Positions 8,129 to 34,412 of a stretch of DNA of 64,000 nt are shown piece after piece. Source of the DNA: Octopus sinensis (Eukaryota); NCBI RefSeq assembly GCF_006345805.1, contig NC_043006.1, positions 95,418,001 through 95,482,000 on the forward strand, read 5' to 3'. The notes under the pieces are model-generated. The model was not told the DNA's origin and did no database searches. It worked only from the letters and a program-made list of their open reading frames with translations. The translations under genes and the position numbers were made by a program. The stretch's first letter is position 1. Each line of letters opens with the position of its first letter.

Positions 8129-8171
<43 letters not shown>

Positions 8172-8920: not shown

Positions 8921-8924
8921 CATC

Positions 8925-9297: not shown

Positions 9298-9525
9298 ACC
9301 TGTTTACATCACTGTATTGTGATCCTGCTTGTGTACGAAACAAATCAACCCCAGTTTTTAATCTTTTCTTAAAACCCTTTACTTATATTTCTGCTCACAT
9401 TTGCTCAACAACTTAAATTACGGGGAAGTGAACAATAATTCTCTGGCGATGCTGTGGACCAACAGAGAAACAAACACCAAACACACACACATATGTATGT
9501 ATGTGTGTTTATATATATATATATA

Positions 9526-9913
9526 CTAGCAGTATCGCCCGGCGTTGCTCGGGTTTGTAAGGGAAATAACTATATAAGCATTTTTAGAGATGTAAAGTAT
9601 AATAGCCATCTCAATATGGCTAACCACAAAGGGGGGGGGGGTGCTACTGTAGCTTTTTACGTTCTGAGATTTAATAATAAATTTTTAGAGTTATATATGC
9701 CAAAAATGCATTAAAAATGGGAAAAATTGATGGTAATTTTTTTTTAAATCGTAGACTCATCGTAGACGCGTGCTATTACCCAGAAGGGCTCGATATGAAT
9801 CACGACTATAAGATACCCGGTTTTGGTTAAACTGCACCGCAAAATGTGGGAGTAGTTAGGAATCTAAATCATAGGAGACAGGCAGCACACAACCTCACTT
9901 TTATACATAAAGA
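9526..9913 (-). mobile_element. Non-autonomous Helitron
   Basis: Minus strand starts A|TC (9913) and ends with hairpin CCCGAGCAACGCCGGG, 8 nt and CTAG|T (9529-9526). No TSD; inserted between A and T. Confidence 0.85.
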
Positions 9914-10464
9914 TATCTGAAATTAGGTAATGGAGAAGATGAAATCTAGGCTACATGTTTAATACCCCATTGTACTCATTCCTTACTTTTGCATATCTAT
10001 TTGCATACACAGCAACCCTGCTGTTAATTACAAGCTATTATGTCATCTTATCGAACTTCTATACGTGGAAAATGCACTGGTTTATACGTTCCTGAAAGTA
10101 GAAAGTTGTTTTTTTATATCTTCTATGAACTGCTTGGAAGCTTACTACCTCCCTACATCTTGATCCCTGGATTTTACCTAAAGAACGACCCTTCATCAGT
10201 TGCTGGCTGTTTCTCCAGTCTCGTATTTCGAACATTAAACAACAATATACGCTTTCGATAAAACAGTTGCTTCCGCAAAGCAATTTAAATAAAATTTGGG
10301 ATTTTGCGGATGGTCAAAATAGATAACACAAACAGGACAGTGAAAACAAGAAGGAAGGGCTGCTAAGTTTAAAGAAGTTTGTGGTGGCGAATGCGTAAAC
10401 CAAGCTAGGGCGCATACATACATAGAGACAGACAGGCGGACAAACAGACATACGGAAAGACACG

Positions 10465-10516
10465 CAGACTGACAGACAGATAGACTGATAGTTAGATAGA
10501 TAGATAGGTAGATAGG

Positions 10517-10571
<55 letters not shown>

Positions 10572-10650
10572 TTAGATAGATAGATAGGTAGATAGATAGA
10601 TAGATAGATAGATAGAAGATAGATAGATAGATAGTTAGATAGATAGATTC
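10465..10650. repeat. (GATA)n/(GACA)n microsatellite
   Basis: Direct reading. Confidence 0.95.
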
Positions 10651-11040
10651 ATGAATAAAACTTAATGTATAGGTACCTTTCAAAATTTCCGATTGTGTCG
10701 TTTGTGTCTTTTACATTTTAATAAAGCTTTATTCATATATTTCTTCTGCTTCTGGAAATTGTGCAGGAAAAGAGTCCGGAACTGCGCAAAATACACAACT
10801 ACATCCACATATGCAGAATACATTCACTCTATAGAACATGTTCTTTTGCGTGACTCTGTTTAACACTTTTATTTCCTATATGAATACATACACGTGGACA
10901 CATACATCTGCATGTGTACATACTTATGATGCGCGTGTGTGTACGCTTGCGGCCGTGCACGCAGAGATAGTCGTACAGCTGTATATATTCACAAATGCAT
11001 GTATTTATACACATATGTTGCAGTATTTAGACATGCATGC

Positions 11041-11074
<34 letters not shown>

Positions 11075-11183
11075 TTGTTTTGAAAGATTTTTGATGTATA
11101 TATTATACAACAATATATATATATATATATTATTTTATAGATAAACCGCTATTTAGTTATTATTACATTCCCTAACTGTTAAT

Positions 11184-11221
<38 letters not shown>

Positions 11222-12530
11222 ATATATATATTATATATATATATATATTATTCGTATCCATATATAGTTGTGGAGATGTATATACACCTACAGATACACG
11301 CACATATAATCCGCATGAGCACAGAGAACCATTTCACCCGTGCTTAGCTTTCAAAATAGTAGTATAATTCTCAGCGAACAATAAAAGAGTTAACTCCATA
11401 TCTGATCTTCGTTTGTTTCCTTTCGCCCATTCTTTCTATTTATTGTTCCTTTATTCCCTTCATTTCGTTTTTGAATTTCTACTATTTTTCTTACCCTTTC
11501 AAATATTTTTAGTTTTATCGATTGATTGAAATCATTATCCTTGTGGGTTTTTTTTTTTAGTTATTGTTTTATTTGTATTTTAAAGTCTTGTGTTTTTCGT
11601 TTGTGCTATTTATGCTTAGTATTGTTATGAGATTGCTAAGTCTGTGAGTACGTGTTTTACTTTCACTTTCGAAATAAAATGAAAACGCGTTGAAAACGCT
11701 TAACTCGTACACTGATAAAGACTCAAAGAGCTAAACTAAAAGTAACAGAAATCTTTGAAGTGTCATCTATAAAATCTCTGGGTTTTTTGCTTTTTAAGTA
11801 TTTATTTTCTTAACATTTTCTATTGCTTATTTTCTGAACGTTTCCTATTATCTTTTAAAATAGTGTTCATCCTTTATATGCTACCTAAATCTCCTCCCAC
11901 ATTCTACAATAAGTTTTAATGGGTAGCGTAGGATTACATAGAAAAACATGAAAGTAATCCGTTTATTATTAACAACAGGGGTATATATGTTTAATAATAA
12001 CGTAAAATATGTTGCGCAAAAGCTGTTACAAAACATGTGGATATGTGCATGCATTGCAACGCACTCTTTCACGATGTGTAGCGATTAAGTAATAATAGAA
12101 TATATTGATGCGAGTCAAAAATATGGCACATGGAGCAAATACAGATACAGGTAACATGCCCACAATGGGATTAGTATCTGCCAATTATTTACCTTCAGTG
12201 CAACCCTCGAACTTGTCCGTTTTCTGCTGTAAGAAATTTATGGGAACTATCTGCTCGTCATTGAAATTGCCCCTTATAATTTTCAGCTTGCTCTGAATAA
12301 CATCTCTTCCTCTGGCCAGCAATTCCTGAACTGTTCGTGACACCTGCTTTACTACTTAAGAAATGTCTTCTAGTCAGAATTTTGACGAATTCTTGTCCGA
12401 AATACGTTAGACAACCAGGAACATCTTTTGAAGGTAAAATCATTTCTTTTTAATTGAAGAAGTTTGAACGATTGTCTCTCGCATAAATGTGCACATATTT
12501 CGGAAGGAAAGATAAAATATGTACACAAAT

Positions 12531-16735: not shown

Positions 16736-17794
16736 CTAGCATTATGACCCGTCGTTGCCGGGTCATAGTGCTAGTGCATGTATATATGTGATAACAATAC
16801 TCAAAATATATAACAGACTGGAATTGTAAGCCCGTCTCTTGCAATTTCGATCAATTGTATCTTGTCCTCCCCCTTGTATAGAAGTGTGGCTACAATCCAG
16901 CCTACCTCTACTTCTGGGGGGAGGGCATTTTTAATTTTCATCTGGCACGTCCAACGACCCAGATATATAGGTAAAAATAAGATATTTCCACTTTGCAAGG
17001 TTCGAGTCGAGTACTCCCTTGCACGCTGCGTTGACTCGAACCTTGCTTCTATTGTGGCGAATTTACCGCCTCTGGTTAGATATCTTTCATAGTCGCACCA
17101 AGACACTTTTCGATGGTGCTTTCCTCCAGGTGTTCAAATCTTCTTTTTTCTCTACATTGTATACCTTATAGACAATAGTCTTTTCTTTAATTTAATTTTT
17201 TATTATCCATCTCGACTATTCCATTTCTGCACGCTAATTTTATTTTTAATTTATTCCCATTCATGTGAAACCACTTATTCAAGTTCAAATCATTGATGCA
17301 ATTTTATACTAATTGGTATTTTTACTTTTGCTATGTTACGATTATATTATACTTTAGTTTGATTTTAATTATTACTTACTACATATAATTCAATTGTTAT
17401 TATTTTTATTGTTAAATTGAAAATAGAGAAGCGTTTTTGTTTCACTTTTAACACGTGATACTGAAATAGTGGAGAAGATATGATATTGCTATGGGCTCGC
17501 TCTAGGCATGAAGTTGAACATTTTTTCTCATGAAACTACATGGACCCTAAGTAAGGCATGTGTAAAATTTGAATGGAATTGGTTGTGTAGTTCTCAAGTT
17601 TTAGGGAATCGTAGTGGAGAAGATATGATATTGCTGTGGGCTCGCCCTAGGCAAAAATTTAAATTTATTTGCCGATGACACTCCCCGGACCTTAAGTAAG
17701 GCATGTGTAAAATTTGAATGAAATTGGTTGTGTAGTTCTCAAGTTTTAGGGAAACACACAGACAGGCACACATTCTCAGTTTTATGTATAGAGA
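16736..17794 (-). mobile_element. Non-autonomous Helitron carrying a captured Tx1 ORF1 fragment (empty-site copy)
   Basis: Minus-strand 5' TC at ~17794 and 3' hairpin plus CTAG|T at 16739-16736. Internal ~148-bp tandem duplication at 17465-17752. Colinear with 22248-22736 plus 33159-33843. Confidence 0.85.
16830..17200 (-). pseudogene. Frameshifted fragment of a Tx1-type ORF1 (RRM-like region) inside the Helitron
   Basis: Across frameshifts it reads KTIVYKVYNVEKK..RFEHLEESTIEKCLGATMKDI..YLTRGGKFATIEARF..LFLPIYLGR..LPPEVEVGWIVATLL. This aligns with LINE ORF1 KRIIYKTYDTTKKMIQKIEEKKIEFCLKPFMDKITYINRGKRYGTVEVRF..LLPLYKGK..IPPEADAECLVAAV. Confidence 0.8.
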
Positions 17795-17811
17795 GGTAGT
17801 ATTGGTTGTTG

Positions 17812-18139
17812 CTGTTGTTTGTTTGTTTGTTGAGCGAAGCGGTCTTCGTCCCAGAGCTCGCAGTGGGAGAAGTCCGAAACGCGGTCCTTTGCTATTCGTA
17901 AGACTCGCTGAAGAGAACGCATGTCAATGCGCATCGAGGGTCAGCGTTTGAAACGAGAAGAAAGAGCGAGAGAAAGTTGGGGCGAAAGAGTACAATAGGG
18001 ACCGCCACCATCCCCTGCCGGAGCCTCGTGGAGCTTTAGGTGTTTTCGCTCAATAAACACACACAACGCTCGGTCTGGGAATCGAAACCGCGATGCTGCG
18101 ACCGCGAGTCCGCTGCCCTAACCACTGGGCCATTGCGCC
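17812..18139 (-). mobile_element. tRNA-derived SINE with an (AAAC)n tail
   Basis: Minus strand starts GGCGCAATGGCCCAGTGGTTAGGGCAGCGGACTCGCGG..GGTTTCGATTCCC (boxes A and B) and ends in (AAAC)n. Confidence 0.8.
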
Positions 18140-18744
18140 ATCACTGTTGCTGTTACTCATGCAGCCTTATTAAGTATAGCAGCAGAATGCTTTCCGATGC
18201 TGCGAAGCTGATCGATGACGGGTTCAACATTTGAGCTGTCCTCCAAAATGCTTCATTTCCCAAGTTAATGAATTTGTAATGAGCAGGAAAGTCTTTAGCG
18301 CACCTTCTTCTGTTTTTTCTTCTTTCTCCTGAACTCTTATTCTCACAAATCAAGATTTTATATGAGAATTTCTATTTTGCTATGCAAATGTAATTAGCAT
18401 TTTTCAATTAACCATAATTAATGGCGTCTTCTAAATTGATATTTTCGTCAACCGCCGTGCTACTGCGAAATAACAATTTATTACCAATGCCGAGACCGTT
18501 ATGTTAAGAACCGATAGGTGGCGCTTCTACAGCTCATACTATTAAGTAGAGCAGTGGTGGTGGGTGATCGTTGACACAAAATAGCCGTCAACATTTTCTT
18601 TGCTTGTAGTAGTAGTAGTAGTAGTAGTAGTAGTTTTAGGTGGTGTGGTGGTAGCTGCAGCAGCAGCAGTAGCAGCAAAAATTGTTGGTGTTACAATCTT
18701 GTAGAAGGCGTGGTTATGGTAGATGTTGTAGTGGTAATGTTATC

Positions 18745-19200
18745 AGCATAGTAGTAGTAGTAGAAATAGTAGTGATGGTAGTAGTAGTAGTAGTAGTAGT
18801 AGTGATGGTGGTGGTGGTAGAAGTAGCGATGGTGGTGGTGGTGTTGCTGTTGGTGGTGGTGGTATTGCTGTTGGTGGTGTTGGTAGTCGTGGTGGTGTTA
18901 GTAGTAGTAGTAGCGATGGTGGTGGTGGTAGTAGTAGCGGTGGTGGTGGTGGTGTTGCTGTTGGTGGTGGTGGTATTGCTGTTGGTGGTGTTGGTAGTCG
19001 TGGTGGTGTTAGTAGTAGTAGTAGTAGTAGTAGTAGTAGCGATGGTGGTGGTGGTAGTAGTAGCGGTGGTGGTGGTGTTGCTGTTGGTGGTGGTGTTGTT
19101 GCTGTTGGTAGTGGTGGTGTTGCTGTTGGTGGTGTTGCTGTTGATGGTGGTGGTGTTGCTGTTGGTGGTGTTGGTAGTGGTGGTGGTGGTAGTAGTAGAA
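18745..19200. repeat. Compound (GGT/GTA/GTT)n microsatellite with internal higher-order duplication
   Basis: Direct reading; the block GTGTTGCTGTTGGTGGTGGTGGTATTGCTG..GTCGTGG occurs twice. Confidence 0.9.
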
Positions 19201-19254
19201 ATTGTAATCGGTTTCCAAATTGATTTATGACTCATACGATGAATAACATTTACA

Positions 19255-19465
19255 TTGGTTTCAAATTTGGCTACAGGGGGGGGGCAGAAGGTTTGGGGAA
19301 GGAGCACTGGGATCGATTAATTCCATCCTTGTGTTCGATTGGTACTTTTTTTTTATCGAAAGCAAAGTCGATCTTGGACGCATTTGAATTCAGATCGTAA
19401 AGACGGACGAAATGCCGCTAAGCATTTCATCCGGAGGACAGACATTTCTGCCAGTTTGCCACCTT
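19255..19465 (-). mobile_element. SINE (family starting GGYGAGCTGGCAGAA)
   Basis: Reverse complement matches 40473-40682 and 61008-61190. Confidence 0.65.
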
Positions 19466-20595
19466 AATGAATAAAATTGATACTGAAATGTCTATTGTGC
19501 ATCTGTGTGTGTATGTGTGTATGTATGTGTGTGTGTACATACACATATACATACATATATGTATGCACATATGTATGTATTTATGTATAACTGACGCACT
19601 AACGTCATTCGATGCGAACTAGCAACGAGACAGGTCCTACTTTGCATGCTTCAGATAACCCTGAAAAAGAAGAACCATCTGTTCCTTGTTCATTTTTTGT
19701 TTGTTTTTCATTTTGTTTTTCATGCTATAAAATATGTTAAAAGCTATTATAAGTCAATACCGTGTTCTACTGTGTTAGCAGTGCTATTACATTACTTGTT
19801 AAGGCTATTTCTACAGATACCTATACAAATTAATAATCAGAACTGATTTTTTTCTACGACGTTCCTTATCAATCTGTGAGATCGAAGATGAAAAATGGGT
19901 GATGTGTGTATGTGCCATATTTCGGGAGGTTTTGATCTTTCATCACTACCTGTTTAACCCATTAATCCTCCACGCAAACATTGCTTAAACAACCACCCAC
20001 AAATAAAGCGGAGCAAGGACATTGGCTATACCAATTTTACATATGCACTTTACTGGAAACTGGTGTGTTAATATTAGTGATTTGTGGGGAAACGATATTT
20101 CGTTCGTTATGCCACCGTAAATACGCTAACACGGTAGAAGAGAGTATTGGCTTATAGAGACGATTAATATAATTTTTAGGATATTATGGCTGCATAGCGA
20201 AATACCGCGTCGCTATTATGTGGATGTTATTTACAGGATTGTAAACGCGACGCCGTATAAATAACCATTCGTACCGAAAGCATATAGAAAGTTTGTTTGC
20301 ATAAAAGCAAACACGGACTATTATAGTTTTTAAATTTGACAGAAATGGAGAGGCTAACTCCCTGGTGTAAAATTAACACACTTAGTCATGTTAACAAAGG
20401 GATGTGGGTTCGACTCCCACACGAATAGGAAAGCCTTCTTTCTTTCTGTCGAGACCTTATATGTCCCTTTATTTGATTATTTTCCTTAGTCATTGCACGG
20501 TGATCGCCATAAGCTTTGAGCTTATATAAAAACACCAATATTATCATTTGCAGGATTGTAAACTCGACACTGTATAAAGAACGATTCGCACCGTC

Positions 20596-20635
<40 letters not shown>

Positions 20636-20649
20636 GTGTGTGTGTGTGA

Positions 20650-20850
20650 CCAGTGTGTACACTTGGCGATTTTTTCTCCGTCTTCCCTTCCTTGGATCTT
20701 TCATTTTCCTATGTTTCTGAGGAAGAGCTCCGCTCGAAACGTTAAATCCTCCTTCTTTCCTTCCTTTCCTGAGCGTCCAATAACACTATACCTGTTCCAC
20801 GTCCTCGCGTTGTTGTGTTTTCTCTTTGTGTTTTCATGTCTGGATTAACT
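20650..20850 (+). mobile_element. Penelope-like pseudo-LTR remnant with a hammerhead-like motif (20713-20747)
   Basis: GTTT-CTGAGGA-A-GAGC-TCC-GCTC-GAAACGTT-AAAT; near-identical copy at 59290-59466. Confidence 0.65.
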
Positions 20851-21478
20851 AAATATATATTTATATATATGCATGTATGTATATGTATGCATACAAACAA
20901 ACCCCCAAACACCCGTCCAGTACAAATACATATGCATAATCAAACATGTAGATAGATAGACAGATAGATAGATAGATTGATTGATAGAGAGTGACCAAGA
21001 GATAGATAGATAGACAGACAGATGGTGAGAGAGAAAATAGGGAGAGAAAAGGAGAGAGAGAGAGAGAAAGAAAGGGAGGAGAGAGACATAGATAATAAGG
21101 TAATGTGTAAATATGCACAGTAGATTGTACACTATAAGCTTGTTTGAAAGACTCTCAGCGATCGCTTTTGTTCCTTTTTTCGTGTTGAGTGTAGAATCTC
21201 TGCAAAACAGAATTGAGTGGATGGGAGTAAAACATTGATTCTTTTCCGTCATTTAAAACATTGGAAACGTAATACGCAAACACACACCGTCAAAATAGCT
21301 TAAAACATCGTCATCGGCATCATAATATATACATACGTGCGCGCATGTGTGTGCGTGTGTGTATGTGTATGTGTATGTGTGTGACTTTGCTTGTATACCC
21401 CAGCAGGGCCGCAGTCTAGTGTCTAAAAGAAACAAAAGATAAGAAAAGGTAAAAGTTAAATAGATAGCTAGATAGATA

Positions 21479-22140
21479 AGTTTCTTTATTGGCCACACAG
21501 GGCTGCACACAGATGGGACAAATTACGAGGTAGAGCTTTTCTTTCGGGGGATGAGAAAGAAAAAGTGGCGTAGTTTTCGATGAAAAGGGATCGTAAAATG
21601 GAAAAAAGAAAAAAAAGAAAAAAAGACAAAAAAGGAAAAGAAACAAAAGAAAAGAAAAAAGAAAAAAGAAGAACAAAGAGGGGAAAAAGGGGAAAAGGAA
21701 AAAAAAAATATCAATAGGGATCGTGTATCACAGTGTCATGATGTACAGTGTAAAGAGGTAAGCAGATAAGGTTTATCCGTGGGAAGAAAAGCCTACAAAA
21801 AAAGACCACGGTAACCGCGGCTAATATTGTTATATGTTACCACATTTGTTTGCAAGTGGGTAACCCTCTGTTTTCAATTTCCGGGTTCATAGGATTATGC
21901 TCAAGATCGCTTCGTCATTCATACGTGCCATCCTTGCTACATTCACCCATCTGTTTTTTAAAACGTTCGCTAGACAAAACTTGCCTCTCTACTCTCACTT
22001 TCCTTTTCAAGTGGTACTTGAAGAAGTTGATTAGAGATTGACCAGAGAGGAAATTGTTTGTCTCCAATCCTTTCAGACGCGTCCACCAGATACATTCTTT
22101 CGCCATAGCCACAAGGATGATGAAAATAGCTCTTCCTTCC
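21479..22140 (-). mobile_element. 5'-truncated Tx1-like LINE (ORF2 C-terminus plus 3' UTR) inserted in (GATA)n
   Basis: AMAKECIWWTRLKGLETNNFLSGQSLINFFKYHLKRK aligns with LINE ORF2 AIAKEVIWKTRMKGLQSGKFISGPGLMNYFIFHLKRK. It has the same 3' tail motif and an 11-bp TSD CTAGATAGATA (21468-21478, 22141-22151). Confidence 0.85.
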
Positions 22141-22141
22141 C

Positions 22142-22190
<49 letters not shown>

Positions 22191-22983
22191 GGTTCGATGG
22201 ATGCATAGATAGATATCGAATTCATCTGTTTTTATTTATATAACTGACTAGCATTAAAGACCCGGCGTTGCCGGGTCATAATGATAGTGCATATATATAT
22301 GTGTGTATATATGTGTACACATTACATTGACATCTATATATATACACATCTACACATAATATACAAAATGCGAATTATATCTTGATATCGCTAGTGATAA
22401 CAATACTCAAAATATATAACAGACTGGAATTGTTAGCTCGTCTCTTATAATTTCGATCAATTGTATCTTGTCCTCCCTTTTGTATAGAAGTGTGGCTACA
22501 ATCCAGCCTACCTCTACTTCTGGGGTGGGGGGGCATTTAAATTTTTTTCCGATACGTCCTACGTCCCAGCTATAAAGGTAAAAATAAAATATTTCCACTT
22601 TGCAAGTTCGAGTCGGGTACTCCCTTGCACGCTCCGTTGACTCGAACCTTGCTTCTATTGTGGCGAATTTACCGCCTCTGGTTAGATATCTTTCATAGTC
22701 GCACCAAGACACTTTTCGATGGTGCTTTCCTCCAGGTTGTTTTATTACTACCCACAAGGGGCGAACATAGATGGGACAATACAATCTGATGATGGGGTCA
22801 GACAAACGAGTGGGTTTTTACAATAAATCGGATTTAAAAATTTTCATGAATTACAATAAATGGACAGAAATCGAATGATGGGACAGACCGGAAGACATTA
22901 CGGGTGGAGTGGGTGCGGGTTTAGCTCGGACCCTACGAGCCCCGCCTCCCCACTGATACTTTTGGTTGCGCTTGGTATTACAT

Positions 22984-25900
22984 TTATGTTGTATCTTTCA
23001 CTCGCAACTTTCGTGCTACATCCTTCCATCGTTCTTCATACACTCTCCTAGTCAGGCATATTCTCCCCAGCCCTATCTTCCTTTTCAGGTGAAAGATGAA
23101 ATAATTCATCAAACCAGGGCCGGAGATGAACTTGCCTGACTGTAAACCTTTCATTCTCGTCTTCCATATCACCTCTTTCGCAATTGCTACTACAACGAGA
23201 AAACGAAAGTTACCGTCATTCACGAGGAAATCCGGTGGGTCAATTTTTGTAATCGACTCAGTCGACAGCTGTACTCTTCGTGTACCTGACAACAGGTGTT
23301 CGGCATAAACCCACACCTCAGACACGTCCGGACAATGAACAATAGCGTGCGGGACGGTTTCCCTATCCCGCCCGCATCTTGGACATATCGGACTGTCTTG
23401 GCCACCGTGCCTTGCGAGTTTATCCCGAACAGGTAGAGCTCCTCTGTAGCATTGCCATGCCAGAGACTTCTGGAAGTTGTCCAGTGTCCTCGGCTCGAAC
23501 GTACGTCGGAACAGACTGGCCAGCTGATTATCGTCGAGACCTAGGGTTTCCCCCAAGGTATCTTCACATTCCGCCTCTACCAACCCTCTATAGAAGAATG
23601 TGGTGGAACCCCCACCGCAGGCGTTGCCCGAGCGACGGAATAGCAGGAGAGCCTTGCGACACTCCGTGTACAAGTACCAAGTTTCGATCTACGATTCAGC
23701 CAGGTTTCCCATCCACCGAAACTAGTGAACTTGGGAAACATCAGTTTTGCTAGCGAAGACCACACCCATTCACCATCCAGGTAGAGCCACAGATGTCTTA
23801 ACCTCAGCGCATGTCTGCGCATCATCAGCCAAGGCATCCCTAGCCCACCCTTTAACGGTTGTTGACAGCAAGTAGAGCGTTTCACAAGTGGTTTCCCGCC
23901 CTTCCACAAGAAGTAGAAGAGCTGTCTTTCCAACTTGATCAACCACGAATCAGGGCAAGGAACGACGGAAAGGCGGTAGGTGATAACCGATGCGATAAAC
24001 ACATTGGCCACCTCAGCCCTCCCTTTCAGGGATAGCCACCGCCAAGACCAGGTCTTGGCTACTGCAGCCACCTTGCTCGTTACCTCGCCCCAATTCTTCT
24101 CTATTTGGAGGTCTGGACCGAACCAGACCCCTAGCAGTTTAATCGGACCCTCCGTCCAACGTCCCACGACGCTGTCAGGAGGCATCGACTTGCCTCTCCA
24201 GGTGCCGAGTTGCAAGCCGACTGACTTTTCGCGATTAACTTTTGCTCCTGTCACCGTCTCGTAAACCTCTATGGCCTTGCCTACTTTACATAGGTGGTCC
24301 CTTTCGGTTACGATGATGGTGATGTCATCCGCGTACGCTGACACTGATTTTCCATTACCTGGCTGTCTCGGGATGCTGCTCAGTTTTCGCAGTAATGGCT
24401 CGAGAGCCATCACGTACAAAAGCGGGGAGAGCGGACACCCTTGACGAACCGAGCGTTTGATTTTGAACGGCTTCGACAAGAAGCCGTTCACCCGAACTAC
24501 CGAGTCGATGTTATCATAAATTTGGATAATCCACCTGAGGAAGCCAAGGCTCAGCCCGAACTGTGCCAGGGCAGATACCAGGTAACGATGGTCGACCCTA
24601 TCAAAAGCTTTAGATTGGTCTAATTGGACCAGTGCCCCACCCTTGCCAGAATCACTATTAAACCCCTCTATAGTGTACCGCATTAGATGGAGATTATCCT
24701 GAATGGATCTGCCCGGAACGGCACATGTCTGTGCCTCTCCGATCAGACCATCCGCGACACGCGCCAATCTTTTCGATAACACTTTGGCCAAAATCTTCAA
24801 CTCTGTGTTTAGTAGAGTGATGGGCCTGAAATTATCAATGCACTCCCCCTTGCTCGGGTCCTTTCTGACGAGAGTCACTACTCCCCGGCGCACAGATCTG
24901 GGTATAAGCCCGTTCTGCTGCCAGTTCGCATAGACCTCCGCCAGTAGGTGCCCGAACAAGTCTGGCATACTCTTATATAACTCATAGGGTAGACCATCCA
25001 AACCCGGCGCCTTGCCCGCGCCGCAGTCCGCCATTGCCTCAACCACCTCCTCAGGCGTGATTGGCCCTTCACAGCCCTCCGCATCTCGCCCCGATAAGCG
25101 CGGCAGCCCGTCGAGTAGCTCCGTAAAGGCCCTCCTCCTATCCAGTCCGCCGCACTCACCGAAAAGCTGAGCGAAGTGCTCCTGAAAGGCCTCACACATC
25201 TCCTCGGGTTCGTTTATCAACTCACCTTGTTGGTTCGTCAAAGATCGAATCGTGGCATCGTTACCATGCCGAGCTTCCACCACTCGGGCCCATCTCACGG
25301 CGTTGATTCCTTCACATCCCATATGGCGGATTCTAGCCCTGACAATGCAGCCCATGTGTTTGGCCTCGAGGTGCTGGTTTAACACCAGTCTCTTGGACGC
25401 CACCTGAGCCGCAGAGCCAGTTTTCATGGCTTCCTCTAATTCCTTAACTAGAGTAGTTTCCCTTCTAGCCTCTCTAGCCACTACTCCTATGCTATATCTA
25501 ATAGACTCAAACTTGATGGCTCGTTTGAGGGCGTACCACCATTTGTTATTAATGATGGTACCAGATAGTGCCCTCTGAATTATATTCCTAATCCGGTCTT
25601 TGTACTCCTTAATCGCCAAAAGGGACGTATTAAGTTTCCAGTAACCGGATCCTCTATTTTTAACCTTATCTATGTCAAGCTTACAAGTGACCATTTTATG
25701 ATCACTGTAGCTGATCGGGTAAAACTGTGGACACTTAGCTATTTTACTGTCTACTTTTCTAATTAGTATTCTATCTAAATATGACCTGGAAGATCCGTCG
25801 CTGTTTGACCATGTCCACAATGGAGCGTTCGGAAATTCCAGCCTATAAGGATCTGCTAGCTCAAAGCGGCTTAGCAGTTCCATGAAGCCACTGTTGCCTT

Positions 25901-26365
25901 TTCTATCTGGACACGAGCCAACATAATCTACATCCGCTTTGCAAGTTGTGTTAAAGTCTCCTAGCACCACTAATGAATGCGAAGTACCAAGAAAGTTTTC
26001 TAGTTCACGAAAATAATCACTTTGCCCTGTATGGTTGGGTGCGTAAATTGCAACCAGTCTGATAACTTTACCAAATCCATGACGACCAGCCTACCTTCTG
26101 GATCTGCAAAAATTAACTTTTTCTCAGAAACCCGGTTTCTTTTTAATAGGACCAACACCCCACTCCCGCCTGTAGGACTGCCAGGAGAGAAAAAACTCTC
26201 GTAGCCGTCAAACAGCGGGAGTAGACCTCTTGGCCCCTCTAACCGGGTTTCTGTAGCAACAATAACATCTAAATTACGCGACCTGATATCATGCAGGAAG
26301 CGACCTTGCTTCCAGCCTGCTCCCAGGCCGCGCACATTCAAACAACCAACATAAATGTAATCCAT
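22984..26365 (-). pseudogene. ORF2 of element A: AP endonuclease, reverse transcriptase and CCHC zinc finger; two frameshifts (~26075, ~23672)
   Basis: APE motifs CLNVRGL, ATET, (V)AIYAP, VLGDFN, YLDRIL, SDH. RT motifs KAPGLDGLP, FRPITLLN, LDQSKAFDRVDH, VRQGCPLSPLLY, AYADDIT. C-terminal CPRC..ETVPHAIVHC. Confidence 0.92.
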
Positions 26366-26373
26366 TACTTACC

Positions 26374-27754
26374 TTATATCAGTGGTTCGGTTTTCTCTTG
26401 TTCTTCTAACTCTTTTTCTGGGCCTCGTGGGGGAGTCTGACGTAGGCCCTCGAATATATGTGGAGATGTCACATCCAATCTAAGTGGGCCTACGTCATGG
26501 AAGAATTCTGACTTTATCCGCCCGTAATCCTTCCGACCTATTCTGTAAATTACAAAGTCGTTTTTTTTCACTACTTTCTCCACTTTGGCCATGGCTGCCA
26601 ACACGTTTCCGAGTCTGCTATTTGCTGCCTTTACGGCCATATACGAGTTCATTGACTCTTTTTTCTTTTTTAAAATTACTCTGGGAGGGGTGGTTTCCGT
26701 TTTTCTTTTTTTTTTTCCGGTAATTTTTGCCCACCCCTCCTCATTTATCTTTTCCTCGCTCTTTTTTTTCCTCCGCCGCTGGTTCTGCTGTCACCGTCAC
26801 CTCCACACCTTCAGTCTTCCCTTCTGGGCCGTCCGACGCTGCTTCTGGTGACACATTATCTTCTTTTTCTTTTGGCTTAGGTGCTTCCTGCGGTTTGGGT
26901 TGGGGTTGGCATTCCGCCCTTACATGACCCTTCTTGCCGCAGCCGAAGCACCTCGGCTTTCTGCCCTCCACGAAAACTGTTATTTTCTCGTCTTCACTAA
27001 TCTTTACCGTTTCTGGAATTTCTTCCAGTGTTTGCACCTCCGCCTGAATGGCTATCACTATTTTTTGCCCTTTCCAAAACTCCTCTTCCTCCACTGTGGC
27101 CTGGAGGATGTTTATTTTTTCCTCCAGACCTACCATCACTGCTGCCACCAGACATTCAGCATCTGCCTCTGGCGGTATGTTGTTCATTGAAATTTTCGAC
27201 GTCCTTTTTCCTTTATACAATGGTAGTAAGACAATGTTTTCCGCTTTGATTGGCTCCATCGATAGTTTCTTCGCTATCTCCTCCGTAGTAAAACGCACCT
27301 CCACTGTGCCGTATCTTTTTCCTCTGTTTATATACGTTATTTTATCCATAAAAGGTTTTAGACAAAACTCTATTTTTTTTTCTTCAATTTTTTGGATCAT
27401 TTTTTTCGTTGTGTCGTAAGTTTTATATATTATTCTTTTTTTTTCTATATCGTCATGTATTTGTATGTTTGTGGCCACAGTCACTTCTGTGCCTTCTTTT
27501 TTTTACGCAGTCTGCAAATTTTTTAAAATTTTCTATATTTATTTTTTTGATCTTTTTCCAGCCACTTCAGCGAATTTTTTTGCTGGAGTTGATGCTGGTA
27601 CTGGTTTTTCCATTTTCTTGGGCGACGCCGCCTCTTTTTTCTTCGGCGACAGCGCCTCTTTTTTTCTTGGCGACAACGCCTCTTTTTTACTTGGCGACAA
27701 CGCCGGGTATTCATCCTCGCTCGTCACGGGCGAATAAGAGATGGGGGACTCCAT
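26374..27754 (-). pseudogene. ORF1 of element A (RRM-like region plus CX2CX4HX4C knuckle); breaks fall in or near homopolymer runs
   Basis: Pieces 27754-27539, 27484-26741 (CFGCGKKGHVRAEC) and 26652-26374. The breaks lie in A-tract-rich sequence and may be assembly errors. Confidence 0.8.
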
Positions 27755-27983
27755 CTTGAACAAATGGCTTTAACAAGCCTTTGGTAAATCCAAAATAAAT
27801 TGTAGTTTTCCCCCACTGAGGGGGGAACACCAACGCGAAGTCTTCGCGCGAAGGCTGACTTCGTCAGTTAGACAACAATAGACAAAACAGGTAGACCAAC
27901 AGTATATAATAACAGAGATAATAGTACGAGAGCAAAAATATATCAACTTACTAATAACGCAAAAAATTGATTTCCTCCAGGTT

Positions 27984-29656
27984 ATTTCTTTATTACCCAC
28001 CAGGGGCTACGAAGAATGCCGGACATAACAAAACATGGGGGACATAGAACAATATGATTAAATTTATGAGCAAATGAAAATGAAAAAATGATAATATGAA
28101 AGCGATGCTAACGGCCCCCTCCGCCAGCATCACTTACCTGTCCTTTTGTTTTCACTGTCACCTGAATGTTCATTCTCAATACGAAGACCATCCATATCCA
28201 TTCTTACTCCGAAACTGTCCTCCATATATTCCACGAATTCATCGCTCATTCTTGTATCTTTCACCTCCCAATTCTCCCTTTCAAACCTCAACACAAACTC
28301 ATCTATATTCTTCTTTTCCAGCACTGCATATCTGGTCCCATCCATTTCATACCATTCATACTCCTCCATTACCCTTTCAACCTCTTTCTGTTCAGTCACA
28401 ATATAAATGTTCGGCCTGGGTTCGTTTTCAAACTCTTGTCTGTCTGTATTGTTATTTTTCTTTTGTTTTCTTGTTGGAGGGGAGCGGGTGGGTTCACTGT
28501 CTGCAGGGGAAGGGTGGGATTCAGAGGGTGCGGGTGGTGTTGGGGTGGGTTGGGGCTTCGCACAGTTTTTCTTTTTCTTTCTTTTTCTCTTTTTTCTTCC
28601 TTCTTCCCACTCTTGTTGCATCTCCTCTTCTTCTGTCGTTTCTTTTTCCCTTTGGTTCTCTTTGGTTTCTTCCTCTTTTGGGGCTTCCGCGACGATTTCC
28701 TTTTCTTTTTCCTTTAGTGGTGGAGGGCAGTAGGCTCTTATGTGACCCCTCATGCCACACTTGTAGCACCTGGGCGCCCTACCCTCCACCCACACTCTCA
28801 TAATAATATTTCCAGTTTTTATACTGTCCGTAAGCTTTTCTATAACTTCCGCCTCCGTCTGTATGTTCATTACTAGTGTGGCACCTCTCACGCCTTCATA
28901 TTTCATAATGGCGTGGAGGATGTCCACTTTATCTTCATTTCCTTTGATAACCGCAGCCGTTATTAATTCGCCCTCTAGGTGTGGAGGTATTCCTTCCACC
29001 CTAATTCTGGTGGTCCTTCTATTCAAATACGAGGGGAACAAGTAAAACTTTTCTGTACTCACCACATTGGCTGCTATATTCCTGGCTGCTTTCTCACTTT
29101 TAAATTGTACCGTTATGATTCCATATTCTAATCCTTTTGTCATGTACACAATTTCTTCTCCTGTCCGTTTGAAAGCCTCTTCAATTGCTTCCATGTTAAT
29201 CACTTCCATTTTTCTACCTCCATTCATAAATACTTTATATTTAATGGTTCTACGATGGAACCAGTCTCCGCGCCCTGCTAGAGGCAACAGCTCAACCTCT
29301 CCGTTCTCCTCCTCCTTCATGAACTCCTGGAAGTCCGTCAACTTAGCCAGGTCTATCTCTTTTTCTGTTGACTTCTTCGTTATACCTGCATAGGTGCTTT
29401 CCATTTTTTTCACCGCCAACTCCTCCTCAGATGTCGACGAATTTTCAGAGAAATTTCTCCCTTCCATCTCATCCGTTTGGTAGAGGCGGCTCATAGTCGC
29501 CTCAGACCGAAAAACGGCCTCCCGAACAGAAAACGTGCGACGCACAGAACCAGTGCGACGCGAAACCGCACCAACCGACGTTCCAATTCCGCAACCACAA
29601 TTCACTTTTTGTTGTTTTTCTTTTTTAACCGAATTTTACAGAGCGCAAAAAAACGC
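27984..29656 (-). mobile_element. ORF1-only non-autonomous Tx1-derived retroelement (element B); its last 5' bases are displaced to 33155-33158
   Basis: Intact ORF1 followed directly by a ~145-bp 3' UTR ending in the stem-loop/AATAAA tail shared with element A; no ORF2 sequence. Confidence 0.85.
28130..29494 (-). CDS. Intact ORF1 protein of element B (454 aa from the first ATG; RRM-like, zinc knuckle CYKCGMRGHIRAYC, basic NLS-like tract)
   Basis: Open frame, homologous to the ORF1s of A and D (RIRVEGIPP, RVWVEGRAPRC, ends KRTGK*). Confidence 0.85.
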   Translation of the reverse strand: MSRLYQTDEMEGRNFSENSSTSEEELAVKKMESTYAGITKKSTEKEIDLAKLTDFQEFMKEEENGEVELLPLAGRGDWFHRRTIKYKVFMNGGRKMEVINMEAIEEAFKRTGEEIVYMTKGLEYGIITVQFKSEKAARNIAANVVSTEKFYLFPSYLNRRTTRIRVEGIPPHLEGELITAAVIKGNEDKVDILHAIMKYEGVRGATLVMNIQTEAEVIEKLTDSIKTGNIIMRVWVEGRAPRCYKCGMRGHIRAYCPPPLKEKEKEIVAEAPKEEETKENQREKETTEEEEMQQEWEEGRKKRKRKKKKNCAKPQPTPTPPAPSESHPSPADSEPTRSPPTRKQKKNNNTDRQEFENEPRPNIYIVTEQKEVERVMEEYEWYEMDGTRYAVLEKKNIDEFVLRFERENWEVKDTRMSDEFVEYMEDSFGVRMDMDGLRIENEHSGDSENKRTGK

Positions 29657-31395
29657 TATTTCTTTATTACCCACTAAGGGGCTACGAAGAATGGCGGACA
29701 TAACAACACATGGGGACATAGAACATTATAATTAAACTTTATGAACATGAATTGTTAAACGAAAAAAATGATAAAATGAAAGCGATACCAACGGCCCCGT
29801 CCGTCAGCATCACTTACCTGTCCTTTGTTTTTCATAGTCACTTGAATGTTCCTTGCCAATACGAACAAATTCCATATCCATTCTTACTCCGAAATACTCA
29901 TCCATATTTTCCACGAATTCATCGCTCATTCTTATATCTTTCACCTCCCAATTCTCGCATTCACACATCACCATAAAGTCACCTATGTTCTTCTTTTCAA
30001 TCACAGCATACCTAGTCTCACCAACATCATACCATTTATACTCTTCCATTAGACTTTTAACTTCTTTCTGTTCAGTCATAGTACAAATGTACGGCCTGGG
30101 TTCGATTTCAATCTCTTGTGTGTGTGTATTCTTTTTTTTCTTTTGTTTTCTTGTTGGGGGGGAGCGGGTGGGTTCAATGTCTGCATGGATAGGGTGGGAC
30201 TCAGAGGGTGTGGGTGGTTTTGGGGTAGATTGGAGTTCCATATTATTTTCTTTTTTTCCACGTATTCTTCTCTTCCTCTTACTTCCAGCTTCCTTCCATT
30301 TCTGTGTATTCTCTTCCTCTGTTTCCTTCTCCTCTGGTTTCTGCTTCTCTCTCTCTGGTTCGGGATCCATTTCTTTCCCTGGGGGAGGGCAGAAGGCTCT
30401 TATGTGACCCCTCAGGCCACACTTGTAACAACGTGGAGCCCTGCCCTCCACCCACACTCTCATGATCACTTCTCCCAGTCTGATGCTTTCCGTCAGGTCC
30501 ACCAGTACCTCGGTCTCTGCCTGTACGTTCAGCTCCACTGTTATGCCTCTCCAGCCCTCGGACTTAACCGAGGCATGGAGAATATCCACTTCGTCCTCGT
30601 GGCCGCTGATCACAGCCGCCACAATCCATTCTGCCTCCACGTTTGGTGGCACTCCTCCACCCTTATTCGTGTAATCCTCCTGTTTAAATACGTAGGTAAC
30701 AGTGTTACCTTTTCCGACTTCACCGCCTTCGCTGCCATCTTCCTCGCTGCAGATTCACTTTTAAAGTGCACAACTACGGTCCCGTACTTGGATCCTCGAG
30801 TCAGAAAATTTATTTCCTCCTCAGTTCTTCGCAGGGCTTCCTCTATCCATTCCATGGATACAACTTCTACCCTCTTCCTTTCGTTTGCGCACACCCTGTA
30901 AACAATGGTCCTCTTATCATACCATTCTTTTCTCCTGGGTGTCGGTGATAGTTCCACCTCACCGCTTTCCTTTTTCATGTATTTCTGGTAACTTGGCAAC
31001 TTGGCCATGTCGACCCCTTTCTCTTCCGCCTTCTTGGTTACACCGGCATAGGTATAACTCAGCTTGTCTTCCAATTTCCTTGCTGCCATTTCTAGCTCCT
31101 TCTCAGACGCAGACAAGTCTGATAAAGACTCAAAAACTCCAGCCTTTTCCTCCATCAGCTTCACTGCAATTGCCTGTTCCAGTTCCTCATCCGTCGTGGA
31201 CAAGTCTGTTAGAGACTCATAGTCCATTTCCTTCTGTCTGACAGACCGAAAACGGCCGCCAAAACAGAAAAAGTGTAACGCGCTGAACGAGCGAAACGCG
31301 AAACCGCGTCAACGCCGTTCAGAATTTCCACAACAACAACAACTCTTTCTTATCCTTTTTTACCGAATTTTACGAGCGTAAAAAACACGGAGCCG
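29657..31395 (-). mobile_element. ORF1-only element C (1739 bp)
   Basis: Flanked by AAAAAAACGC at 29647-29656 and 31396-31405; nearly identical to element D. Confidence 0.85.
29810..31227 (-). pseudogene. ORF1 of element C with a single 1-bp frameshift at ~30655
   Basis: ACTCCTCCAC in C versus ACTCCCTCCAC in D; otherwise it encodes almost the same 472-aa protein. Confidence 0.85.
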
Positions 31396-31405
31396 AAAAA
31401 AACGC

Positions 31406-33145
31406 TATTTCTTTATTACCCACTAAGGGGCTACGAAGAATGGCGGACATAACAACACATGGGGACATAGAACATTATAATTAAACTTTATGAACATGAA
31501 TTGTTAAACGAAAAAAATGATAAAATGAAAGCGATACCAACGGCCCCGTCCGTCAGCATCACTTACCTGTCCTTTGTTTTTCATAGTCACTTGAATGTTC
31601 CTTGCCAATACGAACAAATTCCATATCCATTCTTACTCCGAAATACTCATCCATATTTTCCACGAATTCATCGCTCATTCTTATATCTTTCACCTCCCAA
31701 TTCTCGCATTCACACATCACCATAAAGTCACCTATGTTCTTCTTTTCAATCACAGCATACCTAGTCTCACCAACATCATACCATTTATACTCTTCCATTA
31801 GACTTTTAACTTCTTTCTGTTCAGTCATAGTACAAATGTACGGCCTGGGTTCGATTTCAATCTCTTGTGTGTGTGTATTCTTTTTTTTCTTTTGTTTTCT
31901 TGTTGGGGGGGAGCGGGTGGGTTCAATGTCTGCATGGATAGGGTGGGACTCAGAGGGTGTGGGTGGTTTTGGGGTAGATTGGAGTTCCATATTATTTTCT
32001 TTTTTTCCACGTATTCTTCTCTTCCTCTTACTTCCAGCTTCCTTCCATTTCTGTGTATTCTCTTCCTCTGTTTCCTTCTCCTCTGGTTTCTGCTTCTCTC
32101 TCTCTGGTTCGGGATCCATTTCTTTCCCTGGGGGAGGGCAGAAGGCTCTTATGTGACCCCTCAGGCCACACTTGTAACAACGTGGAGCCCTGCCCTCCAC
32201 CCACACTCTCATGATCACTTCTCCCAGTCTGATGCTTTCCGTCAGGTCCACCAGTACCTCGGTCTCTGCCTGTACGTTCAGCTCCACTGTTATGCCTCTC
32301 CAGCCCTCGGACTTAACCGAGGCATGGAGAATATCCACTTCGTCCTCGTGGCCGCTGATCACAGCCGCCACAATCCATTCTGCCTCCACGTTTGGTGGCA
32401 CTCCCTCCACCCTTATTCGTGTAATCCTCCTGTTTAAATACGTAGGTAACAGTGTTACCTTTTCCGACTTCACTGCCTTCGCTGCCATCTTCCTCGCTGC
32501 AGATTCACTTTTAAAGTGCACAACTACGGTCCCGTACTTGGATCCTCGAGTCAGAAAATTTATTTCCTCCTCAGTTCTTCGCAGGGCTTCCTCTATCCAT
32601 TCCATGGATACAACTTCTACCCTCTTCCTTTCGTTTGCGCACACCCTGTAAACAATGGTCCTCTTATCATACCATTCTTTTCTCCTGGGTGTCGGTGATA
32701 GTTCCACCTCACCGCTTTCCTTTTTCATGTATTTCTGGTAACTTGGCAACTTGGCCAAGTCGACCCCTTTCTCTTCCGCCTTCTTGGTTACACCGGCATA
32801 GGTATAACTCAGCTTGTCTTCCAATTTCCTTGCTGCCATTTCTAGCTCCTTCTCAGACGTAGACAAGTCTGATAAAGACTCGAAAACTCCAGCCTTTTCT
32901 TCCATCAGCTTCATTGCAATTGCCTGTTCCAGTTCCTCATCTGTCGTGGACAAGTCTGTTAGAGACTCATAGTCCATTTCCTTCTGTCTGACAGACCGAA
33001 AACGGCCGCCAAAACAGAAAAAGTGTAACGCGCTGAACGAGCGAAACGCGAAACCGCGTCAACGCCGTTCAGAATTTCCACAACAACAACAACTCTTTCT
33101 TATCCTTTTTTACCGAATTTTACGAGCGTAAAAAACACGGAGCCG
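31406..33145 (-). mobile_element. ORF1-only element D (1740 bp)
   Basis: Flanked by AAAAAAACGC (31396-31405) and AAAAAACGC (33146-33154). Confidence 0.85.
31559..32977 (-). CDS. Intact ORF1 protein of element D (472 aa; RRM-like, knuckle CYKCGLRGHIRAFC)
   Basis: ATG-to-TGA open frame, homologous to the ORF1s of A and B. Confidence 0.88.
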   Translation of the reverse strand: MDYESLTDLSTTDEELEQAIAMKLMEEKAGVFESLSDLSTSEKELEMAARKLEDKLSYTYAGVTKKAEEKGVDLAKLPSYQKYMKKESGEVELSPTPRRKEWYDKRTIVYRVCANERKRVEVVSMEWIEEALRRTEEEINFLTRGSKYGTVVVHFKSESAARKMAAKAVKSEKVTLLPTYLNRRITRIRVEGVPPNVEAEWIVAAVISGHEDEVDILHASVKSEGWRGITVELNVQAETEVLVDLTESIRLGEVIMRVWVEGRAPRCYKCGLRGHIRAFCPPPGKEMDPEPEREKQKPEEKETEEENTQKWKEAGSKRKRRIRGKKENNMELQSTPKPPTPSESHPIHADIEPTRSPPTRKQKKKKNTHTQEIEIEPRPYICTMTEQKEVKSLMEEYKWYDVGETRYAVIEKKNIGDFMVMCECENWEVKDIRMSDEFVENMDEYFGVRMDMEFVRIGKEHSSDYEKQRTGK

Positions 33146-34412
33146 AAAAAACGCGACCTTTTTTCCTCTACATTGTATACTTTATAGACAATAGTCTTTT
33201 CTTTAATTTAATTTTTTATTATCCATCTCGACTATTCCATTTCTGCACGCTAATTTTATTTTTAATTTATTCACATTCATGTGAAACCACTTATTCAAGT
33301 TCAAATCATTGATGCAATTTTATACCAATTGCTATTTTTACTTTTGTTATGTTACGATTATATTATACTTTAGTTTGATTTTAATTATTACTTACTACAT
33401 ATAATTCAATTGTTTTTATTATCTCTAGTTTTTATTGTTAAAGTATCTGACATAAAATAGAGAAATGTTTTTGTTTCATTTTTAACACGTAATACTGAAA
33501 TAGTGGAGAAGATATGATATTGCTATGGGCTCGCTCTAGGTTAGAAGTTGAACAGTTTGTTTGCCCATGAAACTACATGAGCCCTAAGTAAGGCATGTGT
33601 AAAATTTGAATGAAATTGGTTGTGTAGTTCTCAAGTTTTAGGGAATCGTAGTGGAGAAGATATGATATTGCTGTGGGCTCGCGCTAGGCAAAAAGTTCAA
33701 AATTCTTTTGCCGATGACATTCCCCGGACCCTAAGTAAGGCATGTGTAAAATGTCAATGAAATTGGCTGTGTAGTTCTCAAGTTTTAGGGAAACACACAG
33801 ACAGACAGACAGACACACATTCTCAGTTTCATATATATAAACATAATCGCATAATGAGGAAAATTTGTTGCATTCGATCTGGAGCTGCGTCTTACGAGAT
33901 GTTTTGCAGTTAATCTGGATACACGAAAAAGTGTGTTTGACACATTGATTAACAATTGTTAAGATTGAAATCTTTATGGATGACCTATCGCCACATTTAC
34001 ATTTTCTGCAGAAACATTGTTTTTTTTTCTGGAGAATAAACGCTTAAGGCATATTCGAACCCGGAAAGCAATAAATTTCTCACTGTAAGCACACTAAAAG
34101 CTGCACATAGTGCCACCTATCTAGGCTGTGAAATGCATGGAGAGTAACTCACCTTTAGTCACAGAAAACGGATGCTTTGTTAGCTGATTAAAGAGACTAT
34201 CTCTCTTATGATACTTATCATTCTACGACGAGGAGAATATCTCTTTTATCTCCCTGATCATCTCGCAACGCATCCTGTCCAGTTTCTGTATCTGAGAGGA
34301 GATAACCCTTGCATCTCACAGTTAGGGTAAGTGGCGCTGCGAGCTGATTTTGGTGTGTTCTCAACACTCGTCTACAGCGACAATTCTTCTCCGTGACAAA
34401 ACCCAATGAATG

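What the first reader, a model, noticed from the sequence alone, without database searches (positions are those of the whole stretch)
16736..22738. A Helitron captured a Tx1 ORF1 fragment, and that fragment is the landing site of the Tx1 train
Seen: both Helitron copies (16736-17794; 22248-22736 plus 33159-33843) carry ~370 bp encoding a frameshifted ORF1 segment from another subfamily. The A/B insertion point lies inside it, at the codons for HLEES (minus strand CACCTGGAGGAAAGC). Known: Helitrons capture and multiply gene fragments. Inference: if these retroelements recognise ORF1 sequence of relatives, the Helitron spreads ready-made target sites. It could also be a source of piRNA against the family. 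The two sister copies 5.5 kb apart give a filled/empty comparison.
Basis: partly seen in the sequence, partly recalled or inferred. Interest (0 to 1): 0.7.

Follow-up and report, generated by a model that had tools for sequence, protein, structure and literature searches.

The report
Retrotransposons homing into a Helitron-borne site
A family of copy-and-paste jumping genes and its three stripped-down dependants insert again and again at one exact nucleotide inside a common small DNA transposon, in a stretch that the transposon likely took from another retrotransposon, and their RNAs carry short pieces of that landing site that likely help the insertion close.

Summary
Confirmed and extended. 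Both window copies belong to a high-copy non-autonomous Helitron that carries an L1/Tx1-type ORF1 piece (E 4e-23). A longer variant also holds that donor's putative 5'UTR and ORF1 start. The site is a genome-wide target: 124 filled against 998 empty exact junctions, and 29 of 59 sampled loci with an A-type 3' end sit at this nucleotide. A full LINE (A) and three ORF1-only dependants (B, D, E) use it. Most insertions are independent, not hitchhiking: elements are 1.3-2.2% diverged, their Helitron flanks 3.6-6.8%. One Helitron subfamily (CATGT allele) is about 9-fold preferred. Element RNAs carry target-derived 5' leaders, seen at off-target copies and as A-to-G edits running into Helitron sequence. 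On-target copies are nearly all full length (37 of 40, against 5 of 22 dispersed). Not supported: recognition of relatives' ORF1 (no insertion at the homologous codon of B) and piRNA against the train (no DNA similarity). The donor was not found. Tx1 elements targeting other transposons are known; I found no Helitron target in print. The scan noted these trains before on other DNA.

The parts
16736..17794 (-). Non-autonomous Helitron, copy 1 (short form, G allele), empty target
   Evidence: family of at least 998 empty exact sites
16736..16775 (-). 3' hairpin and CTAG terminus, followed by T
   Evidence: fold -15.0 kcal/mol with DNA parameters; T follows CTAG in 64 of 66 copies whose end was found, of 70 examined
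16840..17204 (-). Captured L1/Tx1-type ORF1 fragment, frameshifted; about 570 bp of upstream donor sequence present in long Helitron copies is deleted here
17120..17143 (+). Empty target: TTTCCTCCAGGT (17120-17131), insertion point between 17131 and 17132
16811..16824 (+). Second, minor insertion site (GGAAT) used by a diverged A clade in other Helitron copies
   Evidence: L173, L174
22248..22737 (-). Helitron copy 2, 3' half, ending at the first target copy (22726-22737)
22738..27970 (-). Element A: full-length LINE, ORF1 with CCHC knuckle, ORF2 with APE endonuclease, RT and zf-RVT; both ORFs frameshifted in this copy; ends in AATAAAAC without a poly(A) tail
27971..27982 (+). Second target copy (12-bp duplication, locus G allele)
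27983..29656 (-). B1: ORF1-only element, open 501-codon frame
29657..31405 (-). B2: ORF1-only element, one frameshift, 8 mismatches from B3; joined without a target duplication
31406..33158 (-). B3: ORF1-only element, open 499-codon frame; 5' end GGTCGC replaces 12 target bases
33159..33843 (-). Helitron copy 2, 5' half

Best explanation
A full-length LINE (A) and three ORF1-only dependants (B, D, E) insert at one nucleotide of a high-copy non-autonomous Helitron, inside a likely captured 5' end of another L1/Tx1-type element; A's endonuclease likely picks the site, and target-derived leaders on the RNAs likely pair with the Helitron to seal the 5' junction. Shown: the site, its repeated independent use, the allele bias, and the leaders. 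Inferred steps: (1) The Helitron took up a donor 5'UTR plus about 190 ORF1 codons, and a 570-bp deletion later gave the short form. (2) A's ORF2p nicks after CAYGT; extra contacts in the upstream flank raise the Helitron site far above generic CAYGT sites. (3) Copies inside Helitrons are transcribed with 10-35 nt of flank. A, D and E leaders resemble the duplicated 12-mer, so these elements stack with a duplication between them. B's leader matches the sequence upstream and replaces 12 target bases. (4) New D and E copies often enter at the upstream-most junction; B then removes the canonical site, which explains the usual order A, D/E, B. (5) That the target codes for ORF1 is most likely incidental: the lineage adapted to an abundant, harmless repeat.
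For: 124 filled vs 998 empty exact junctions, reversed-pattern controls 0. 29 of 59 loci from the first 100 of 414 A-type 3' ends are anchored at the site (hand-clustered). Independence: element divergence 1.4/2.2/1.3% vs flank 3.6/5.5/6.8% for B1/A/D; flank no more diverged than element in 1 of 66, 16 of 231 and 0 of 6 pairs; Helitron indel variants are shared across A-, B- and D-filled loci. Allele bias 34 T/6 G filled vs 379/619 empty, odds ratio 9.3, p 3.5e-9, with distal markers still linked to the allele. Dispersed A, E and B copies have 14-21 bp duplications and mostly end at YAYGT or YATGT. Leaders: E copies L168 and L182 carry the Helitron site at their 5' end away from any Helitron; in L236, 137 of 166 differences are T>C on the cDNA strand and run 10 nt into Helitron sequence; 33 of 34 B 5' junctions are identical. 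A locus-specific variant junction is repeated after different elements in L117, L119 and L125. Two A clades with other sites both change the two residues after YAPN in the endonuclease, HT to SK or QK.
Against: About half of A-type loci lie elsewhere: 22 dispersed, 4 in another repeat, 2 at a second Helitron site, 2 unresolved of 59. No biochemical test was possible. The hairpin loop known to tune L1 and Tx1L specificity (PMC1950540, passages) is unchanged in the switched SK clade, and the residue argument rests on two clades (3 and 1 sequences with the endonuclease). The T allele marks a whole subfamily, so the bias may reflect age or chromatin rather than base reading. B-B junctions with 13-25 nt of Helitron sequence also fit shifted nicks with ordinary duplications. 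Junctions that repeat the canonical 12-mer cannot give the order of arrival. No transcript was seen directly.
Confidence: 0.72

Rival explanations
1. The A lineage first evolved to parasitise the ORF1 of the donor retrotransposon, and Helitron capture multiplied a target that already existed.
For: The target lies in ORF1-coding DNA in sense orientation. The preferred T allele reads H-M-E, like N-M-E and S-M-E in B1 and B3, whose DNA holds CCATG at the same codon. Tx1 families that target LTR retrotransposons exist (PMC4494074, section 15).
Against: 0 insertions at the homologous B codon genome-wide (exact pattern only) and 30 of 30 sites intact. A, D and E show no such core at that position. 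The long Helitron form that keeps most donor sequence mostly has the disfavoured G allele: 0 of 28 filled loci with a visible flank were long, against 13 of 19 G-allele empties. Sister clades use non-ORF1 sites. No donor was found.
Confidence: 0.12
2. Specificity is mainly RNA-guided: read-through transcripts carry target sequence at the 3' end that pairs with the nicked primer, so each lineage inherits the target of its master copy.
For: AATAAA lies only 2-4 nt from the 3' junction and no poly(A) is inserted, so transcripts would likely end in the target. 5' leaders show flank co-transcription. Clades only 3-10% apart use different repeats. On-target copies are full length.
Against: Use of the G allele is not clustered on the A tree (6 changes vs 6.7 shuffled, 125 of 500 as low). 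No allele conversion at junctions. No 3' transduction among 40 filled loci. Target switches coincide with endonuclease substitutions.
Confidence: 0.1
3. A few insertions were amplified as cargo by the Helitron or by gene conversion between Helitron copies (hitchhiking).
For: 33 of 34 identical B 5' junctions; the high share of full-length copies; one B1 pair has equal flank and element divergence (L091/L111); an earlier scan note (e1-9543651) favoured it.
Against: Flanks are 2.5-5 times more diverged than the elements. The same element sits in different Helitron indel variants and in both alleles. Four element families and many train compositions occur.
Confidence: 0.06

Closest known systems
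Tx1-Mar LINEs with SINEU-3 in Mariner-N4_AMi, crocodilians (PMC4494074; passages and sections 15 and 20 read)
   Same: Target is a fixed site in an abundant DNA transposon; non-autonomous partners share it; tandem insertions sandwich a duplication; 5' extensions from the flanking transposon are reported; hitchhiking was considered there too.
   Different: Here the host is a Helitron, the site lies in captured retrotransposon ORF1 DNA, and the partners are three ORF1-coding families rather than snRNA-headed SINEs. The word Helitron does not occur in that paper's main text.
Tx1L in Tx1D (piggyBac type, Xenopus); Tx1-9_AMi in Harbinger; Tx1-8_Crp and Tx1-4_AMi in LTR retrotransposons (as summarised in PMC4494074 and PMC1950540, passages; the original Tx1L paper was not held)
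   Same: APE-endonuclease LINE aimed at another transposon.
   Different: Tx1L is described as stringent; this family puts about half of its loci elsewhere. No Helitron host is listed.
ORF1-present bipartite non-autonomous LINEs: HAL1, HeT-A, Ag-Sponge (PMC5786205, passages)
   Same: B, D and E keep only ORF1 plus a shared 3' tail; B and E use A's nick motif at dispersed sites.
   Different: They are not simple deletions of A: outside the last 50 nt they have no DNA match to A, and they stack at a sequence-specific site.
Non-autonomous HLE1 Helitrons with captured fragments (PMC11417382, passages)
   Same: 5' TC, 3' hairpin plus CTAG, A-T insertion, captured coding DNA.
   Different: The cargo is the 5' end of a LINE and serves as an insertion target.
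R2 co-transcription with 28S rDNA (as cited in PMC4494074 section 20; 5' joining by pairing is recalled, not read)
   Same: RNA carries target sequence at its 5' end.
   Different: R2 has a restriction-like endonuclease and targets a host gene.

Membership tests
HLE1 (canonical Helitron), non-autonomous | 3' hairpin followed by CTRR | tested here: met
   CTAG end found in 66 of 70 copies; hairpins fold at -15.0 and -12.9 kcal/mol in the two window copies
HLE1 (canonical Helitron), non-autonomous | 5' TC and insertion between A and T | tested here: met
   T after CTAG in 64 of 66. At the 5' end A|TC was matched in 17 of 27 copies in which the end motif was located, of 70 examined; the rest mostly run into TA repeats
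HLE1 (canonical Helitron), non-autonomous | Dispersed copies with precise ends and unrelated flanks | tested here: met
HLE1 (canonical Helitron), non-autonomous | Termini shared with an autonomous RepHel element | not tested
   no search for a RepHel partner was run
Tx1 clade LINE (element A) | ORF2 with APE endonuclease, RT and C-terminal zinc-binding domain; ORF1 with CCHC knuckle | tested here: met
   PF03372, PF00078, PF13966 above cut-off; PF00098 below cut-off; endonuclease aligns to human L1 EN, E 2e-8
Tx1 clade LINE (element A) | RT phylogeny groups with named Tx1 families rather than L1 proper | tested here: inconclusive
   99 homologues returned, none named as Tx1; no reference tree was built, so Tx1 is a working label
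Target-specific Tx1 family (criterion of PMC4494074: more than 20% of flanks in one repeat) | More than 20% of insertions in one repeat at one site | tested here: met
   29 of 59 loci
Target-specific Tx1 family (criterion of PMC4494074: more than 20% of flanks in one repeat) | Endonuclease cleaves the target sequence-specifically | not testable with these tools
   needs a nicking assay
ORF1-present bipartite non-autonomous LINE (HAL1-like; B, D, E) | ORF1 only, no ORF2, 3' tail shared with an autonomous LINE | tested here: met
ORF1-present bipartite non-autonomous LINE (HAL1-like; B, D, E) | Derived by internal deletion from the autonomous partner | tested here: not met
   No DNA match to A beyond about 50 nt of tail; B ORF1s 33-36% identical to A ORF1; they work like HAL1 but come from other lineages

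The most novel reading that the evidence does not exclude
A retrotransposon lineage preyed on the ORF1 of a relative; a Helitron captured that relative's 5' end and spread over a thousand landing pads, and the colonists now carry pieces of the pad as RNA leaders that help choose or seal the site, so that targeting is partly inherited through RNA and can switch with two endonuclease substitutions.
Probability: 0.15. Interest if true: 0.8.

Novelty: new variant of a known kind. Interest (0 to 1): 0.56.

Why it matters
It is a three-layer transposon ecosystem that can be counted: a rolling-circle element spreads a target, one LINE supplies the enzyme, three ORF1-only families ride along. It adds Helitrons to the hosts of target-specific APE-type LINEs, as far as my searches reach. 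It also makes an open question testable, namely how such elements change target: clades only a few percent apart use different sites and differ at two residues beside the catalytic YAPN motif, and two target alleles differ about 9-fold in use. The edited leader is direct sequence evidence that flank RNA writes the 5' junction, which could explain why on-target copies are full length.

Tried and rejected
Donor search: the protein database gave no hit for the 96-aa fragment (longer proteins only). The own-genome protein search had 12,389 candidates, 150 scored; of the 30 fetched all were Helitron copies. Pfam found nothing in the fragment. An apparent similarity of the long Helitron's 5'UTR to A's 5'UTR was not significant (88 of 300 shuffles as high); E scored 4 of 300 and one B variant 16 of 300, weak with six tests. 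A loose 3'-end pattern caught 21,853 copies of a different tailed repeat and was useless for A/B. In one search my first letter excluded direct Helitron junctions, so it gives no target fraction for B. My hand count of alleles (36/64) misread at least one row and was replaced by the exact count. Allele memory and RNA-templated conversion were tested and not seen. Expression: no RNA holder listed; contigs of four runs cover both Helitron and A tail but show nothing on transcripts. Small RNAs were not examined. Not in print as far as searched: listings only; Helitron + Tx1 + preferentially inserted: 0 papers. PMC13282606 (passages) counts L1-Tx1 and Helitron families in an octopus and has no mention of targets. 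Repbase Reports, subscription papers and supplements were not seen and may list such a family.
Full report
What is in the window. Two copies of one 1-kb repeat lie on the minus strand: 16736-17794, and 22248-22737 plus 33159-33843. The family has the marks of a non-autonomous canonical Helitron as defined in PMC11417382 (passages): a 3' hairpin and CTAG followed by T in 64 of 66 copies whose end was found, of 70 examined, A|TC at the 5' end in 17 of 27 copies where the end motif was located, and unrelated flanks. The window lies in G000, a 2.7-Gb animal genome. Earlier scan notes call it an octopus; I did not test this. Copy 2 is split by a 10.4-kb train in the same orientation: a full LINE, A (22738-27970; APE endonuclease, RT, zf-RVT), a 12-bp repeat of the target (27971-27982), and three ORF1-only units B1, B2, B3 (27983-33158).

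The captured piece is real and larger than reported. The fragment matches A and B ORF1 at E 1e-12 and 3e-12. A profile of five ORF1s hits the Helitron consensus in three successive frames (E 8e-7, 9e-4, 4e-23). Among 29 other top protein hits, 21 had more than 400 extra bases just upstream of the fragment. These hold a putative 5'UTR, an ATG and the ORF1 N-terminus, continuous with the fragment. The Helitron therefore took up the 5' end of an L1/Tx1-type element, about 190 codons, and the window's copies are a deletion form. The donor is none of the train families: 26-44% amino-acid identity and no significant DNA match. I could not find it. Whether capture was by terminator bypass or by insertion and later deletion is not resolved.

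The site is a genome-wide target. Exact patterns give 124 filled junctions and 998 empty sites, controls 0. Both are lower bounds, and the filled pattern misses ends like this window's own. A-type 3' ends number 414 (one flank position constrained). The first 100 in coordinate order fall by hand into 59 loci. After fetching the 32 not visibly anchored and two further stretches, 29 are at the Helitron site, 2 at a second site in the same Helitron, 4 in another repeat, 22 dispersed and 2 unresolved. By my arithmetic, about 1,100 to 12,000 sites among 5.4 billion strand positions would catch a few per million by chance. The first 40 of the 124 filled loci contain A, B and two further ORF1-only families, D (1.9 kb) and E (1.8 kb), all at the same nucleotide.

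The insertions are mostly independent. Pairwise substitution is 1.4% in B1 against 3.6% in its Helitron flanks, 2.2% against 5.5% for A, 1.3% against 6.8% for D. Flanks were no more diverged than elements in 1 of 66, 16 of 231 and 0 of 6 pairs. Helitron indel variants cut across element families. This argues against the hitchhiking reading of an earlier scan note (e1-9543651) as the main mode, though single cases are possible.

What is recognised. Dispersed A, E and B copies have ordinary 14-21 bp duplications and mostly end at YAYGT or YATGT on the primer strand, which ties B and E to A's enzyme. The Helitron has two alleles, CCATGT and CCAGGT. Empty sites are 379 to 619, filled ones 34 to 6 of 40: odds ratio 9.3. 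The T allele marks a short subfamily and stays linked to distal markers in filled loci, so it is not written in by RNA; age or chromatin could also cause the bias. None of 28 filled loci with a visible upstream flank was of the long form, against 13 of 19 G-allele empties. A five-base core is far too common to explain half of all insertions, so more is read. In L117, L119 and L125 a locus-specific variant of the 12-mer is repeated after different elements. I infer that new copies entered at the upstream-most junction and that upstream sequence matters. On a tree of 54 A copies, G-allele use is not clustered, but one clade (100/99) ends at CAGTT and another (100/100) at the second Helitron site. 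Both change the two residues after YAPN, to SK and QK, a motif that aligns with the L1 endonuclease. The hairpin loop studied in PMC1950540 (passages) is unchanged in the SK clade. This is a lead from two clades, not a result.

RNA leaders. E copies L168 and L182 lie away from any Helitron yet begin with the Helitron site or a variant, in L182 outside a true duplication. In L236 the last B unit is A-to-G hyper-edited (137 of 166 differences from its nearest comparison) and the edits run 10 nt into Helitron sequence, so that stretch passed through RNA. B's 5' junction is identical in 33 of 34 cases and replaces 12 target bases, as in this window. First elements reach their 5' end in 37 of 40 on-target loci but only 5 of 22 dispersed loci, even by a looser criterion (hand tallies; p 3e-8). 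The two samples come from different searches and some very short dispersed tails may belong to other families. I infer that leaders pair with the target to finish the insertion. For this locus the likely history is: A inserted with a true 12-bp duplication carrying the rare G allele, B1 at one copy of it, and B2/B3 (8 mismatches apart) were joined end to end.

B ORF1s do hold CCATG at the homologous codon, so the idea was testable. All 30 such sites in fetched loci are intact and an exact genome-wide pattern found none filled. Of 39 non-control flanks only two train neighbours were ORF1-like. The ORF1 nature of the target is thus probably incidental, though without the donor an ancestral stage cannot be excluded. 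piRNAs from the fragment could not pair with A, B, D or E outside the short leaders; this follows from the lack of DNA similarity and was not tested with small RNAs.

Comparison with what is known. Tx1 families aimed at piggyBac, Mariner, Harbinger and LTR elements, with tandem insertions and flank-derived 5' extensions, are described in PMC4494074 (passages, sections 15 and 20). ORF1-only dependants are described in PMC5786205 (passages). My searches found no Helitron host and no target inside captured LINE sequence (listings only), but Repbase and subscription papers were out of reach. PMC8869645 (passages) and PMC7265360 (abstract and outline) added nothing specific. Membership of A in Tx1 proper was not shown by phylogeny. 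The scan had already noted such trains in another genome and on other pieces of this one. Verdict: a real, quantified, new variant of a known kind.

Noticed in passing
window 21478-22140: 5'-truncated piece of another LINE family (45% identical to the A ORF2 C-terminus) inserted in a (GATA)n microsatellite, possibly a microsatellite-targeting relative.
   Followed up: no
G000, 21,853 matches: A very abundant repeat shares B's 3' tail and mostly follows TACC, often at one spot in a common short repeat; probably a tailed SINE moved by another member of the family.
   Followed up: partly
L240:1502 and L241:1552 as oriented, plus three more matches: A relative 80% identical to A sits at one position in a different repeated sequence ending GATTTTTGCGA: another target-specific family.
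   Followed up: partly
L179, L183, L185, L189: An unidentified repeat is the target of the SK clade of A; three of the loci also share a Mariner-like end nearby, and L185 has an ORF1 remnant of yet another family about 500 bp away.
   Followed up: partly
L236:1479-3260: A-to-G hyper-edited B copy fixed in the genome (137 of 166 differences), edits extending into the flank-derived leader.
   Followed up: yes
L191, L243, L244 (G000:C1 about 69.52-69.56 Mb): A Helitron-anchored train of one A, about ten D units and several E-type units over 30 kb, all joined by the same variant 12-mer.
   Followed up: partly
L096, L125: Head-to-tail tandem Helitron copies.
   Followed up: no
window 17132-17171 (minus strand): A TATA-like hexamer lies about 40 nt upstream of the insertion point in the family consensus, which would put a start site near where some leaders begin; untested.
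   Followed up: no
window 28128-28140, 29808-29820, 31557-31569: Each B unit has a perfect splice-donor-like CAG|GTAAGT at the ORF1 stop codon.
   Followed up: no
window 20627-20850 and 59298-59681: A 170-bp interspersed repeat present twice at 93%, the second copy part of an inverted repeat.
   Followed up: no
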